From a virus (taxonomy: Duplodnaviria > Heunggongvirae > Uroviricota > Caudoviricetes), in IMG/VR virus record IMGVR_UViG_2877251553_000007: a DNA stretch of 45,334 nucleotides; one strand, given 5' to 3'. Below are positions 27,001 to 30,000 of this stretch, piece after piece. Every line of letters starts with the position of its first letter. Position 1 is the first letter of the stretch. A program made the position numbers.

Positions 27001-30000
27001 GCCCGCCGATGGCTTCACGTAACATGTCCTCCGCCTTGTACTGCTTGCCAAACAGCCACAACTCATCAATCAGCGTCCCCACGGACTTGATACCGGACAC
27101 CGTATTCGGATCGGCTGCCACCACCTTCAGGGTGGTGTCCGTCACCCGGTGGGTGATGGTCCGGATATGTGTCTGCACCTGACAGAGGTCATCCAGATCA
27201 TCGTCCCGTCGTACCATATCCCTGGCAGGATTGAAGGCGTTGGCTGCCACCTCCACAGTCGGGGCCAGAATCGTGTAACCCGCCGCCTGCCGCCAGTTCA
27301 GTAACAGCGCCGTCATCATGATCCCGGCGGCCAGTGTGGACTTGCTGTTTTTTTTGGGTATCAGAATGAACACTTCCTTGATATGGCGGACACCGGTCTG
27401 CGCATCGTAGGAGCCAAACAGAGCCGCCACCAGGTCAAACACCCACTGTGCACAGGACTCCCCGAACGTCGGGCTACCCGGTGCATCCACAATCCGCAGT
27501 TGTTTAAAAATCGCCAGGGCATGTGCGGCCTGGTCCGGATAAATCGGAGCCGGAATAATCGACAGCCCCTTTTTCAGGCGCTCTGCCCAGTCCGGGCAGG
27601 CCGTGCTCCATACAGGTATCATCCGTTGCCCTCATTATCGTTATTCACCACCAGTCGTGGTGGTGGTACCGCAAAACGGTTAGCCGCTTTTTTCGCGGCA
27701 TCACCTTTTGCCGATTTTTTACCGGCATCGCCTTTTTTATGGTGTGTGAACTGCGCCAGTCGCCAGGCCGCATCCAGTGCCAGTTTCGGATCAATGCTGA
27801 GGTTTTCCACCAGGATCTGCCCCATAGCTTTCACCGGATCGGGAAGACCATCCTCCATATATTCAATACCATGAGACATCACCGCGGGCGGTGGCATCTC
27901 CGGATTGTTTTCGTCCGGCTGTGGTATTGCAGCCGCCTCACGGCGACGGGGTTTATCCTCCTGCTCTGATTTTTTCTGCCGGTAAACAGGAACCTCATCC
28001 ACCTCCACCGTTTCGCACTGTTTACGGGCTATAAACGCGAGCACCTCCGGATCTTTTGCCAGCTGCGAGCCTTTAACCCTGGCGGTCTTCGCCGAATAAC
28101 CGGCGGCAATGGCTGACGCTGTTTTGTTTTTCCCGGACATGAGCGCCAGCGCAAATTTTCGTTTTTGCGTTGTCAGCACAGCCTCCTCCCGGGTCCAGAA
28201 CGCACTCAGCCGGGTATGGTTCAGCCCATTTTTCCCGGCGTCTCATGCCGCAAATGTTAACTGCTGCCTGGTTAACATTTTCTGAAAAAGCCAGTTAACA
28301 TTTTTTTTCGCACAACAAACTGAATAATAAAGATAAAAACCGCAAAAATGCCCGGACAGCCAGTTAACATGTTAACTGGCCTGAAACGGGAATTTTTTCT
28401 CTGCGTGAGAGGGGGCGCGGTGTCCAAAGCGATCGTTTTTTACGCCGGATGATACCCCCGGGGTCGGGTTACAGTCCGATGATGTCGTCCTCTCTGCCAC
28501 TACCTCCGGACACCTCCGGCAGCGTCGGGTCCGGCATATCACTCGCCGCTTCACGAGCAGACTTTTGTCGATGGCATTCGGTACAGAGCGTCCAGAGATT
28601 CGTCTCCTCATTACCACCACCGAACTGAAGTGCAATTCGGTGATCGAGTTCACTGTCACAGAGGTCAACCACACGACCACAGAGACGGCACTGCCCGGCG
28701 TCCCTGAGCCAGATATGACGCTTGAGGGAAACACGTGCACTGCCACTGACACGACGCTGTTCACCCTTCAGAATATTCACCCGTCGGGTATTCAGTGTTT
28801 TGATTCTGCTCTGGAGTGTACGAAGCTCAGCCATGTAAAATCCCCGTCATATGGCAATCAGTAAAGGAAATAAATATGTCATCGAAAAACCGTACCCGCA
28901 GAACCACAACCCGCAATATCCGTTTCCCCAATCACATGATTGAACAGATCAACATCGCCCTTGAGCATAAAGGGTCCGGTAACTTTTCAGCGTGGGTTAT
29001 TGAAGCCTGCAGGAGAAGGCTGGCAACAGATGCAACGCATCTGCGCCCGGCCAGCATGACAAATAACGAGAAATGAACGTTCGGTTACAGGAGCAGGTAC
29101 CCACTGTCCTCCAACAATATTTCATCTTCATATCCGACGGAACAAGACTTACCCTGCCGGGATGTACAGAATAACAACAGAGTGATAATTAATTTCTGAT
29201 GAAATAATCAGGGTGCGGAAGGACTAAAGATAAACGTTTTCTTCACGCCTTTACACGGCCTGTCCTTCTCAAATCGCCATTTTGCCATCGCCTTTACAAC
29301 CTGCTCATCAAACAGATGGTGCGGCTCTGAACGAATAAACTCAATTCGGGTGACAGTACCATCAGCACCAATATCAAACCTCACATCAACCCGTCCCTTT
29401 ATATAATTTGCCGCTGCATAGGCCGGATATTGTGGTAATGCCTTAACCAACTGTCGGGGCATATCTGTTTTATGTTGCGTACAGCCCATAACCAGAGAAG
29501 ACAACAAAATAATTAACGGAAGATTTCTTTTCATTTTCATTCCCCGCACAGATAAAAATAAGTCTTATTCTAACAATGCCGCCCTGTCGGTCATCAATCC
29601 TCTGCTTAATGGCAACGACAATTATCCGACTTAAATCACAAATCAGACACATGACATAACAGGGCTTGCGAGGTAACACATCGTCCTGTTTCTTCCACCA
29701 TCGCACCGGACTGGCGACTATGAGGGGACAACGCCGCGCTCCGTTAACGCGGTAAACCCCGGTGTGTATCGTTTTTGATTATCCCCGCACACTCGCGCAG
29801 AGGAGTCTCCCTGTCGGGCTGCGGTCTCTGTTAATGAGGGAATACAGCGACGATACGGCGCATCAGCAAAACTTAGTTCAGGCACTGAGTGCGGATATAG
29901 TCCTGTGCCCCTTCCAGCTGCTTCTGCATTGTCATCAACCGTTCTCTGAGGATGAAATAATCCCGTTCAGCGGTGTCTGCCAGTCGGGGGCCGGTTGCAT

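What the first reader, a model, noticed from the sequence alone, without database searches (positions are those of the whole stretch)
29208..29534. TonB C-terminal-domain lipoprotein as a moron next to the lysis cassette
The ORF has a textbook lipoprotein signal (LVMGC lipobox) followed by a domain matching the TonB_C signature (YP..A...G.V.V.F.I..DG.V......W.F). It sits where lambda has bor, but it is not Bor-like and is co-oriented with the late genes. A secreted TonB-C mimic could dock to TonB boxes of outer-membrane receptors (FhuA, BtuB and others that many phages and colicins use), so it is a plausible superinfection-exclusion or receptor-masking factor. The function is hypothesis only.
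Basis: partly seen in the sequence, partly recalled or inferred. Interest (0 to 1): 0.6.

Follow-up and report, generated by a model that had tools for sequence, protein, structure and literature searches.

The report
Prophage lipoprotein copying TonB's receptor-binding domain
A common E. coli prophage carries a 0.6-kb add-on gene for a small outer-membrane lipoprotein that is a free-standing copy of the receptor-docking end of the host's TonB protein; it most likely jams TonB-dependent uptake, though nobody has tested this.

Summary
On the minus strand, 29208-29534 encodes a 108-aa protein with a lipoprotein signal (LVMGC, Cys18, Thr at +2). It ends in a complete TonB C-terminal domain: Pfam TonB_C 55 bits against a cut-off of 24.6, and a gapless alignment to E. 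coli TonB 151-231. The AlphaFold model (pLDDT 86.5) overlays TonB bound to BtuB or FhuA at 1.0 Å. It has no TonB membrane anchor or proline-rich spacer, so it is not a TonB.

The gene lies in a 605-bp, low-GC cassette (about 29087-29692) between Rz/Rz1 and the terminase genes. That cassette is cleanly absent from a near-identical phage. It occurs in 414 of 5426 complete E. coli genomes, in phage 21 (which also has bor), in Stx1a phages, and at the same slot in Klebsiella, Sodalis and Rahnella prophages. Selection is purifying (dN/dS 0.11), and the ORF is intact in 67 of 67 viral contigs.

Relatives also occur on a plasmid and in non-phage chromosomal sites, so the family is not phage-only.

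Most likely mechanism, inferred and untested: an outer-membrane-tethered TonB decoy occupies Ton boxes and gives tolerance to TonB-dependent phages, colicins and microcins. I found no functional paper. Databases already name it "TonB family protein".

The parts
29087..29692 (.). Moron cassette of about 605 bp holding only this gene, with 158 nt upstream and about 120 nt downstream. Boundaries are good to about ±9 nt because of microhomology.
   Evidence: Phage vB_EcoS-569R3 matches window 28600-29086 (98.6%) and 29682-29863 (95.6%) with nothing in between. GC is 0.43 against 0.54 in the flanks. Many prophages share only the Rz-side flank from about 29684 onward.
29208..29534 (-). Coding sequence of the 108-aa TonB_C lipoprotein (stop codon included).
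   Evidence: ORF list and sequence; Pfam, NCBIfam and PHROG hits; the same ORF is annotated 'TonB family protein' in RefSeq genomes; the exact protein is found on at least 1000 contigs.
29481..29534 (-). Signal peptide and lipobox (residues 1-18: MKRN + hydrophobic core + LVMG|C). Cys18 is the predicted lipid-modified first residue of the mature protein.
   Evidence: Matches the PROSITE-type lipobox pattern. The lipobox is conserved in 18 of 24 family members, and +2 is T, S or A in all, never Asp.
29460..29480 (-). Short tether (residues 19-25, TQHKTDM) between the lipid anchor and the folded domain.
   Evidence: Homology to TonB starts at residues 24-26. pLDDT is low before residue 25. Most relatives have 16-19 residues between the Cys and the PxYP motif.
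29223..29459 (-). TonB C-terminal domain (residues 26-104, equivalent to TonB 153-231). Includes the YP motif (Y36 P37) and strand beta3 (residues 94-103), which in TonB pairs with the Ton box.
   Evidence: Gapless alignment to TonB chains 1u07, 2gsk_B and 2grx_C. AlphaFold pLDDT is above 95 across the domain. Foldseek gives TM 0.94 and 0.92 with rmsd 1.0 Å to receptor-bound TonB.
29567..29594 (-). Promoter-like site inside the cassette: ATGACC, 16 nt, TGn-TAGAAT (extended -10). It ends 32 nt before the ATG.
   Evidence: Consensus scan; the number of sites is not above chance for the region. The block ATTGT(T/C)AGAATAAGAC is kept in the diverged phage 21 allele while the surrounding sequence is not. 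TGTTAGAAT is invariant in 67 of 67 viral contigs. Similar sites lie about 30 nt upstream in the Sodalis and Klebsiella-phage copies.
29541..29545 (-). Ribosome-binding site GGGGA, 6 nt upstream of the ATG at 29534.
   Evidence: Read directly from the sequence. It is kept as AGGAA in phage 21, where it is annotated as a ribosome-binding site.
29873..30397 (-). Context: the Rz i-spanin gene with Rz1 embedded (29935-30120). This is the true spanin pair, immediately upstream of the cassette.
   Evidence: ORF translations. RefSeq annotates 'lysis protein' and 'Rz1 family lipoprotein' in near-identical prophages.

Best explanation
The gene encodes a natural dominant-negative TonB: the receptor-docking C-terminal domain of an enterobacterial TonB, without the inner-membrane anchor and proline-rich spacer, fused to a lipoprotein signal.

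Proposed path:
1. [quoted passage not shown]
2. An 8-residue tether holds the domain just under the TonB-dependent transporters (FhuA, FepA, Cir, BtuB and others).
3. Its exposed beta3 edge strand pairs with their Ton boxes as TonB's does. It is not connected to ExbB/ExbD, so it cannot transmit energy.
4. It therefore competes with TonB and damps every TonB-dependent entry route.

The expected result is a lysogen that tolerates TonB-dependent phages (T1, phi80 and similar), group B colicins and siderophore-microcins, at some cost in iron and B12 uptake. The gene travels as a self-contained 0.6-kb moron, probably with its own promoter. It would also be read by late transcription.

Shown here by computation: signal and lipobox, fold, conservation, cassette structure and distribution. 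Inferred: localisation, Ton-box binding, competition with TonB, phenotype and expression in the lysogen.
For: 1. Fold and sequence. Pfam TonB_C and TIGR01352 score well above their cut-offs. The alignment to E. coli TonB 151-231 is gapless. The AlphaFold model has pLDDT 86.5, above 95 over residues 25-105. Its best structural matches are TonB in its receptor-bound state: 2gsk_B with BtuB (TM 0.94, rmsd 1.0 Å) and 2grx_C with FhuA (TM 0.92, rmsd 1.0 Å).
2. Extent. The protein ends at the equivalent of TonB residue 235, and the TonB fragment ordered in the FhuA co-crystal is 158-235 (PMC2533080).
3. Key residues, read from the alignment with an offset of +127. These are kept: the YP motif (Y163/P164 = Y36/P37), Q162 = Q35, and the aromatic positions F180 = F53, F202 = F75, W213 = W86, Y215 = F88, F230 = F103.
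4. Outer-membrane targeting. The lipobox is conserved in 18 of 24 relatives, +2 is never Asp, and the tether is short.
5. Precedent. Overexpressed periplasmic TonB domain inhibits iron import through TonB-dependent transporters in E. coli (Howard et al. 2001, cited in PMC9841981). A Ton-box pentapeptide reduces colicin killing and phi80 infection (Tuckman and Osburne 1992, cited in the same paper).
6. The protein is under selection. dN/dS is 0.11 against the phage 21 allele, and 0.09 in the domain. The ORF is intact in 67 of 67 viral contigs, with 15 synonymous and 7 non-synonymous polymorphic sites. The gene survives intact in a prophage carrying three IS elements and a split J gene.
7. Accessory-gene behaviour. 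The cassette shows presence/absence polymorphism and low GC. It occupies the same slot between the lysis cassette and terminase in Escherichia, Klebsiella, Sodalis and Rahnella prophages. One plasmid copy lies next to the QatABCD defence system.
8. The phage's own tail-tip protein is of the lambda J type, 53% identical to lambda J in the last 250 aa. Nothing suggests that the phage itself needs TonB.
Against: - No binding, localisation or phenotype data exist, and I found no paper on it in ten literature searches.
- Two TonB residues implicated in Ton-box or receptor contacts are not kept. Q160 is Leu33 and varies across the family. R166 is Tyr39.
- Constant expression in a lysogen would cost iron uptake.
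- The promoter-like site is not statistically above chance. I found no terminator and no Fur box.
- Relatives sit in ordinary chromosomal sites in Raoultella and Klebsiella. A housekeeping role for the family cannot be excluded.
- PADLOC has no model for it.
- Whether an 8-residue tether allows the domain to reach a Ton box could not be checked, because no coordinates or complex prediction were available.
Confidence: 0.45

Rival explanations
1. Late-phase lysis or release accessory. The gene is read mainly from the late promoter together with holin, endolysin and spanins. It would act at the end of the lytic cycle, for example by uncoupling TonB-mediated links between inner and outer membrane, by binding cell wall or outer-membrane proteins to help envelope breakdown, or by blocking late superinfection. 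It would not be a lysogenic-conversion factor.
For: The gene is co-oriented with the late operon and lies directly downstream of the spanin genes in every prophage examined. PHROG 1267, which it matches end to end (E=1.7e-42), is filed under 'lysis'. The own-promoter evidence is weak.
Against: A complete Rz/Rz1 pair is already present. Near-identical phages lack the cassette, so it is dispensable for lysis. The fold is TonB_C, not a spanin. The PHROG label looks like annotation by neighbourhood. Chromosomal and plasmid relatives have no lysis genes nearby.
Confidence: 0.12
2. Envelope lipoprotein with a role unrelated to Ton boxes. The TonB_C fold would be used as a general binding module for peptidoglycan, Lpp/OmpA or another periplasmic partner. 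The effect would be on outer-membrane properties such as serum resistance, vesiculation or adhesion, in the way Bor and Lom are conversion factors.
For: Bor and Lom, the classical lambdoid conversion genes, are also outer-membrane proteins carried as morons, and Lom is present in this window at 4808-5410. Non-phage chromosomal relatives suggest a physiological role for the family. Some Ton-box-contact residues are not conserved. From my own knowledge, TonB_C domains also occur in non-transport proteins: NCBIfam returns weak hits to gliding-motility proteins.
Against: The closest sequence and structure relatives are genuine enterobacterial TonB proteins, at 36-41% identity and rmsd 1.0 Å to the receptor-bound form. 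They are not the divergent TonB_C proteins. The edge strand and the aromatic positions are kept.
Confidence: 0.15
3. Decoy for incoming toxins rather than for receptors. The domain would capture the Ton boxes carried by group B colicins, or by phage proteins, as they reach the periplasm. It would act as a second layer of immunity without much effect on nutrient uptake.
For: Colicins B, Ia and M carry their own Ton boxes (PMC2533080). In Serratia a signal-peptide relative lies 68 bp upstream of a colicin immunity gene, on the same strand. The neighbouring pore-forming colicin has a Ton-box-like DSMTV near its N terminus.
Against: The Serratia link is a hotspot coincidence. Homology between strains stops exactly at the stop codon of the TonB_C gene, and the neighbouring cargo is colicin plus immunity in one strain and a SIR2 gene in another. 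A domain able to bind colicin Ton boxes should bind receptor Ton boxes as well, so this is a sub-case of the main explanation rather than a separate mechanism.
Confidence: 0.1
4. Functionless remnant: a piece of a host tonB gene picked up by illegitimate recombination and carried along passively.
For: Older annotations call it a 'partial tonB-like membrane protein' or 'TonB fragment'. Only the C-terminal third of TonB is represented.
Against: It has acquired a complete lipoprotein signal that TonB lacks. dN/dS is 0.11 with dS about 1.6 between alleles. The ORF is intact in 67 of 67 viral contigs. The architecture is conserved across at least six genera.
Confidence: 0.03

Closest known systems
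TonB (E. coli TonB, UniProt P02929; structures 1u07, 2gsk chain B, 2grx chain C)
   Same: Residues 24-104 align without gaps to TonB 151-231 at 36-37% identity. The fold is the same (rmsd 1.0 Å), as are the YP motif, the aromatic positions and the C-terminal edge strand that pairs with Ton boxes.
   Different: It has no N-terminal membrane helix and no proline-rich spacer. The full-length TonB models score 49-74 bits against cut-offs of 265-448. It carries a lipoprotein signal instead, so it would be anchored in the opposite membrane and cannot be energised by ExbB/ExbD. Q160 and R166 are replaced (L33, Y39).
Engineered periplasmic TonB fragments (Howard, Herrmann, Stratilo and Braun 2001, J Bacteriol 183:5885)
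   Same: A TonB C-terminal domain placed in the periplasm without its anchor. It is reported to inhibit iron import through TonB-dependent transporters (cited in PMC9841981). This is the same principle as proposed here.
   Different: Those were laboratory constructs, soluble and overexpressed. The protein here is a natural, lipid-anchored, diverged copy carried by prophages. I could not read the original paper.
Llp of phage T5 and Cor of phi80/N15
   Same: Llp is a small phage-encoded lipoprotein of the inner leaflet of the outer membrane that acts on a TonB-dependent transporter from the periplasmic side to exclude other phages (bioRxiv 10.64898/2026.03.26.714494). Cor inactivates the FhuA receptor (PMC11436027).
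   Different: I detected no sequence or fold relationship: none appeared in the Pfam or PHROG scans or in the fold searches. Both act on one receptor, FhuA. For Llp the mechanism is remodelling of the FhuA plug and surface loops. A TonB decoy would be receptor-agnostic and would act on energy coupling.
Bor of phage lambda
   Same: By my own knowledge of lambda Bor, it is an outer-membrane lipoprotein carried as an accessory gene between the lysis genes and cos.
   Different: The sequence is unrelated, with no Bor match in Pfam. In phage 21, bor is on the opposite strand to the late genes, and that phage carries both bor and this gene.
PHROG 1267 ('Rz-like spanin')
   Same: The protein matches this phage protein family end to end (E=1.7e-42), so it belongs to that cluster.
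   Different: The family's label does not fit. The fold is TonB_C, and a true Rz/Rz1 pair lies upstream.

Membership tests
Pfam TonB_C (PF03544) / TIGR01352 tonB_Cterm domain | Profile score above the curated cut-off | tested here: met
   PF03544 scores 55.4 bits against 24.6. TIGR01352 scores 55.2 bits against 27.1.
Pfam TonB_C (PF03544) / TIGR01352 tonB_Cterm domain | TonB C-terminal fold (three-stranded sheet packed on two helices, YP motif) | tested here: met
   The AlphaFold model has pLDDT 86.5. Foldseek gives 2gsk_B TM 0.94 and 1u07 TM 0.88-0.91, with rmsd 1.0-1.1 Å. TolA domains reach only E>0.1.
TonB energy transducer (NCBIfam equivalogs PRK10819.1-x) | Full-length architecture: N-terminal inner-membrane helix, proline-rich spacer and C-terminal domain, with a score above the equivalog cut-off | tested here: not met
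   Scores are 49-74 bits against cut-offs of 265-448. Only profile positions about 152-240 are matched. The N terminus is a cleavable lipoprotein signal.
Bacterial lipoprotein (signal peptidase II substrate) | Positively charged N-region, hydrophobic core and lipobox [LVI][ASTVI][GAS]C within the first 40 residues or so | tested here: met
   The sequence is MKRN-LPLIILLSS-LVMG-C18, which matches the PROSITE-type pattern. The lipobox is conserved in 18 of 24 relatives.
Bacterial lipoprotein (signal peptidase II substrate) | Actual lipid modification and outer-membrane sorting | not testable with these tools
   Only the sorting rule can be applied: +2 is Thr, not Asp, which predicts the outer membrane. 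Testing needs labelling, globomycin treatment and fractionation.
Moron (accessory gene unit in lambdoid phages, sensu Juhala/Hendrix) | Present or absent between otherwise collinear phages, with deviating base composition | tested here: met
   There is a clean 605-bp indel against vB_EcoS-569R3. GC is 0.43 against 0.54.
Moron (accessory gene unit in lambdoid phages, sensu Juhala/Hendrix) | Own promoter and terminator allowing expression from the repressed prophage | tested here: inconclusive
   A promoter-like extended -10 site lies 32 nt upstream and is conserved in phage 21 and in 67 of 67 contigs. The site count is not above chance, and the window has no terminator. The Sodalis copy has both a promoter-like site and a terminator.
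Spanin (Rz1-type o-spanin; label of PHROG 1267) | Short proline-rich outer-membrane lipoprotein encoded within or overlapping the i-spanin gene | tested here: not met
   This is a separate gene 339 nt downstream of Rz. The real Rz1 lies at 29935-30120. The protein has a globular TonB_C fold.
Bor/Iss lipoproteins | Sequence similarity to lambda Bor | tested here: not met
   Pfam returns no Bor family hit at E<=1. Phage 21 carries a separate bor.
Known anti-phage defence or superinfection-exclusion proteins (PADLOC; Llp/Cor) | Match to a catalogued defence protein model | tested here: not met
   PADLOC gives only a chance-level hit, E=0.038. No Llp or Cor family appears in the Pfam or PHROG output. 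This bears on membership only, not on working like them.

The most novel reading that the evidence does not exclude
This would be the first natural, receptor-agnostic exclusion factor that targets energy coupling rather than a receptor. It would be a prophage-borne, outer-membrane-tethered, dominant-negative TonB that blocks all TonB-dependent gates at once. Lysogens, including Shiga-toxin E. coli, would gain broad tolerance to TonB-dependent phages, group B colicins and siderophore-microcins in the gut. Related chromosomal copies in other Enterobacterales would act as built-in brakes on TonB-dependent transport.
Probability: 0.35. Interest if true: 0.75.

Novelty: new variant of a known kind. 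Interest (0 to 1): 0.55.

Why it matters
TonB-dependent transporters are the entry gates for many phages, colicins, microcins and siderophore-antibiotic conjugates. Interference with TonB docking is being pursued as an antibacterial strategy (PMC9841981).

A natural TonB decoy, carried by about 8% of complete E. coli genomes and by Stx1a phages, would have three consequences:
- It would be a new exclusion mechanism that acts on energy coupling instead of on a single receptor.
- It could alter how lysogens respond to colicin- or microcin-producing competitors, to phage therapy and to "Trojan horse" siderophore drugs.
- It would give a ready-made, evolution-tuned inhibitor for studying the TonB-Ton box interaction.

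The test is simple: clone a 0.6-kb cassette and spot phages and colicins on the resulting strain.

If the decoy idea fails, the gene is still a very common, conserved, uncharacterised prophage conversion gene, and the phage family database labels it wrongly as a spanin.

Tried and rejected
- **Fur regulation.** I found no match to the 19-bp Fur box consensus with up to 3 mismatches anywhere in the window.
- **Colicin link.** A Serratia relative lies next to a colicin and its immunity gene. I rejected this as evidence. Between-strain homology ends at the stop codon of the TonB_C gene, and the neighbouring cargo is a SIR2 gene in another strain. The gene therefore merely borders a variable hotspot.
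- **Disulfide role for Cys94.** Rejected: the residue is Arg in a common allele and varies across the family.
- **Terminator and RNA element.** The consensus scan finds no terminator. The 3' region folds no better than shuffled sequence, z = -0.24. Rfam gives no match.
- **Single-sequence AlphaFold model.** It was poor (pLDDT 56) and I replaced it with the alignment-based model.
- **Broad alignments for locus searches.** A narrower alignment worked.
- **Lysis and terminase markers.** These markers, taken from four prophages, were not found around the Raoultella, Klebsiella and Erwinia copies (one weak Rz match in Shimwellia). ORF inspection showed ordinary chromosomal neighbours.
- **Receptor of the prophage.** The tail tip protein is of the lambda J type but diverged, so I cannot name the receptor.
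- **Databases.** PADLOC and the viral structure library BFVD gave no meaningful match.
- **Literature.** Ten searches found no study of this protein. The key precedent paper (PMC99666) is not held.
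Full report
**1. What is in the sequence**

The finding's coordinates are exact, but the gene is on the minus strand. The ATG is at 29534 and the stop codon ends at 29208, giving 108 codons. A GGGGA ribosome-binding site lies 6 nt upstream. Two further in-frame starts (29540, 29549) are badly placed relative to it. RefSeq annotation of near-identical prophages calls the same 108-aa ORF.

The product begins MKRNLPLIILLSSLVMG|C. It has two positive charges, a hydrophobic core and a lipobox with Cys18, and it matches the PROSITE-type lipoprotein pattern. 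The residue after the Cys is Thr. [quoted passage not shown]

**2. The domain**

Profile and sequence matches are strong:

| Search | Result |
|---|---|
| Pfam TonB_C | 55.4 bits (cut-off 24.6, E=8.7e-15) |
| TIGR01352 | 55.2 bits (cut-off 27.1) |
| Full-length enterobacterial TonB equivalogs | matched only over their last ~85 positions, far below their cut-offs |
| Solved structures | residues 24-104 align without a gap to E. coli TonB 151-231, E about 1e-15 |

With that offset of +127, these TonB positions are kept: the YP motif, Q162, F180, F202, W213 and F230. Y215 is replaced conservatively by Phe. Q160 is Leu and R166 is Tyr.

A single-sequence structure prediction was poor (pLDDT 56). 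With a 23-sequence alignment the model reached pLDDT 86.5, above 95 for residues 25-105. Its best matches among solved structures are:
- TonB bound to BtuB (2gsk_B): TM 0.94, rmsd 1.0 Å.
- Free TonB (1u07).
- TonB bound to FhuA (2grx_C): TM 0.92, rmsd 1.0 Å.

TolA domains are only marginal.

The protein stops at the equivalent of TonB 235, and the TonB fragment ordered in the FhuA co-crystal is 158-235 (PMC2533080). The protein is therefore the minimal Ton-box-docking module, hung on a lipid anchor by about eight residues. It has no inner-membrane helix and no proline-rich spacer. It carries a TonB_C domain but is not a TonB.

**3. Genomic setting**

The order on the minus strand is:
- lysozyme (30676-31209)
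- Rz with embedded Rz1 (29873-30397; 29935-30120)
- this gene
- a DUF3950/YlcI gene on the other strand (28816-29076)
- HNH endonuclease
- small and large terminase subunits

GC falls to 0.41-0.44 over the gene, against about 0.56 on either side.

Phage vB_EcoS-569R3 is 96-98% identical on both sides but lacks window 29087-29681 at a clean junction. The unit is thus a cassette of about 605 bp holding only this gene, 158 nt of upstream sequence and about 120 nt of downstream sequence.

Inside it, 32 nt before the ATG, lies a promoter-like site with an extended -10 (TGTTAGAAT).
- That block is almost the only upstream stretch kept in the 71%-identical phage 21 allele.
- It is invariant in 67 of 67 viral contigs.
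- Promoter-like sites lie at the same distance in the Sodalis and Klebsiella-phage copies, and the Sodalis copy also has a terminator directly after the gene.
- None of these scans exceeds chance on its own.
- The window copy has no recognisable terminator, no Fur box and no Rfam match.

Expression from the repressed prophage is therefore plausible but not shown. The gene's orientation guarantees transcription by late read-through.

**4. Distribution**

- The cassette region is present at 80% coverage or more in 414 of 5426 complete E. coli genomes.
- The exact protein is recorded on at least 1000 contigs.
- 142 IMG/VR viral contigs encode a relative.
- Among phage records it occurs in Lys8385Vzw, four Stx1a-converting phages and JLK-2012 (98-99% identity).
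- It also occurs in phage 21, ev017, Perceval and ECOR prophages (71%), and in a Klebsiella phage (41%).
- In phage 21 the curated annotation already reads "TonB C-terminal domain protein". That phage also has bor, upstream and on the other strand. The gene therefore occupies its own slot rather than replacing bor.
- Diverged relatives (33-49% identity) lie in the same place, after the lysis genes, before the terminase and co-oriented, in Sodalis, Rahnella and Klebsiella prophages.

An exhaustive profile-free search found a family of 105-135-aa proteins with the same architecture. Of the 24 I examined, 18 have a lipobox, none has Asp at +2, and the distance from the Cys to the PxYP motif is mostly 16-19 residues.

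The family is not confined to phages:
- Raoultella and Klebsiella species carry copies among ordinary chromosomal genes.
- One copy is on a plasmid beside the QatABCD defence system.
- One lies in a cellulose-synthesis locus.
- A Serratia branch has an ordinary signal peptide instead of a lipobox.

**5. Is it functional?**

Between the window allele and the phage 21 allele, dS is about 1.6 and dN is 0.19. That gives dN/dS of 0.11 overall and 0.09 within the domain.

In 67 viral contigs holding the whole cassette the ORF is always intact. Polymorphic sites are 15 synonymous against 7 non-synonymous.

The window's prophage is itself decaying. It carries IS110-, IS66- and IS3-family insertions and a split tail-tip gene, yet this gene is untouched. 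A passive tonB remnant is therefore very unlikely.

**6. Most likely mechanism**

The simplest reading of the anatomy is a dominant-negative TonB held at the outer membrane. The domain would dock onto the Ton boxes of TonB-dependent transporters by the same edge-strand pairing as TonB. It cannot be energised, so it would compete with TonB.

There is experimental precedent for the principle. Overexpressed periplasmic TonB domain inhibits iron import through these transporters. A Ton-box peptide reduces colicin killing and phi80 infection (both cited in PMC9841981; I could not read the original Howard et al. 2001 paper).

The nearest functional analogues among phage genes are Llp of T5 and Cor of phi80/N15. 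Llp is a small outer-membrane lipoprotein that silences FhuA from the periplasmic side, and Cor also inactivates FhuA. They are unrelated in sequence and specific to one receptor. A TonB decoy would be general.

The phage's own tail tip is of the lambda J type, so nothing suggests it depends on TonB itself.

What is shown here is the signal, fold, conservation, cassette and distribution. What is inferred is localisation, Ton-box binding, competition with TonB, phenotype and timing of expression.

Points against:
- Q160 and R166 are not conserved.
- There would be an iron-uptake cost.
- The promoter evidence is weak.
- Chromosomal relatives may have a housekeeping role.
- There are no experimental data at all.

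I put this explanation at about 0.45.

**7. Rivals**

- A late-phase lysis accessory, as the PHROG label "Rz-like spanin" suggests. This is unlikely. A true spanin pair is present, sister phages do without the cassette, and the fold is not a spanin.
- An envelope lipoprotein that uses the fold for some other partner. I cannot exclude this.
- A decoy aimed at the Ton boxes of incoming colicins. This is really a sub-case of the main idea. The Serratia colicin neighbourhood that seemed to support it turned out to be a hotspot coincidence.

**8. Novelty**

The ORF is annotated in thousands of genomes as "TonB family protein". The observation itself is therefore not new, and the domain assignment is routine.

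What appears to be undescribed is the architecture and its meaning: a TonB docking domain re-anchored to the opposite membrane and spread as a prophage moron. Ten full-text searches, including a 2024 review of superinfection exclusion (PMC11436027), found no study of it. PADLOC has no model for it. The viral structure library holds no protein of this fold at E<=0.001.

I rate it a new variant of a known kind. It is of moderate to good interest because a cheap experiment could reveal a new, receptor-independent exclusion mechanism in a clinically relevant set of prophages.

Noticed in passing
window 802-1998 (+), 15570-17171 (+), 33521-34411 (+): Three insertion-sequence transposases lie inside the prophage: IS110 family, IS66 family (among the tail genes, near the tape-measure gene) and IS3 family (between the Q/methylase region and the holin). 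The prophage looks degraded. I did not check what each one interrupts.
   Followed up: partly
window 5478-8773 (-): The tail-tip (J-type) gene reads as two overlapping ORFs, 6986-8773 and 5478-7034. The related prophage in NZ_CP180632 has one 1128-aa gene, so a frameshift is likely. The last 250 aa are 53% identical to lambda J, and the receptor is unknown.
   Followed up: partly
window 37855-38104 (-): A cluster of three tRNA genes, Arg(tct), Arg(tcg) and Met(cat), lies just downstream of a DNA methylase gene (38154-39203).
   Followed up: no
window 29636-29731 (-); L002 3846-3983: A short ORF upstream of the TonB_C gene begins MVEETGRC... Its start lies in a DNA block shared with phage 21, where a 45-aa hypothetical gene (CPT_21_72) is annotated in the corresponding region. 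Its 5' end (from about 29693) lies outside the cassette. It could be a real micro-gene or simply conserved DNA.
   Followed up: no
L007 6001-8510; L016 1840-5300: In Serratia a TonB_C protein with an ordinary signal peptide and no lipobox borders a variable hotspot. One strain has a colicin immunity gene and a pore-forming colicin with a Ton-box-like DSMTV motif there. Another strain has a 786-aa SIR2-domain gene. Homology between strains ends at the stop codon of the TonB_C gene.
   Followed up: yes
L014 5348-11737: A plasmid-borne family member (P0075, beside ParM/StbB partition genes) lies just upstream of a DUF6694 gene and a QatABCD-like anti-phage defence operon.
   Followed up: no
window 29208-29534 (PHROG 1267): PHROG family 1267, labelled 'Rz-like spanin' in the lysis category, matches this TonB_C lipoprotein end to end. 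The label is probably an annotation error that will spread to phage genome annotations.
   Followed up: partly
L018, L020, L021, L022, L025 (Raoultella and Klebsiella species): Lipoprotein TonB_C relatives (40-51% identity) lie among ordinary chromosomal genes (near lacZ/lacI and a YagU-like gene in L018 and L025) with no phage genes nearby. R. planticola has two copies. This points to a wider, unstudied family of small outer-membrane TonB_C lipoproteins in Enterobacterales.
   Followed up: partly
window 28469-28834 (-) and 28816-29076 (+): An HNH endonuclease gene lies directly upstream of the small terminase subunit gene. A DUF3950/YlcI-family gene is on the opposite strand, convergent with the TonB_C gene.
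   Followed up: no
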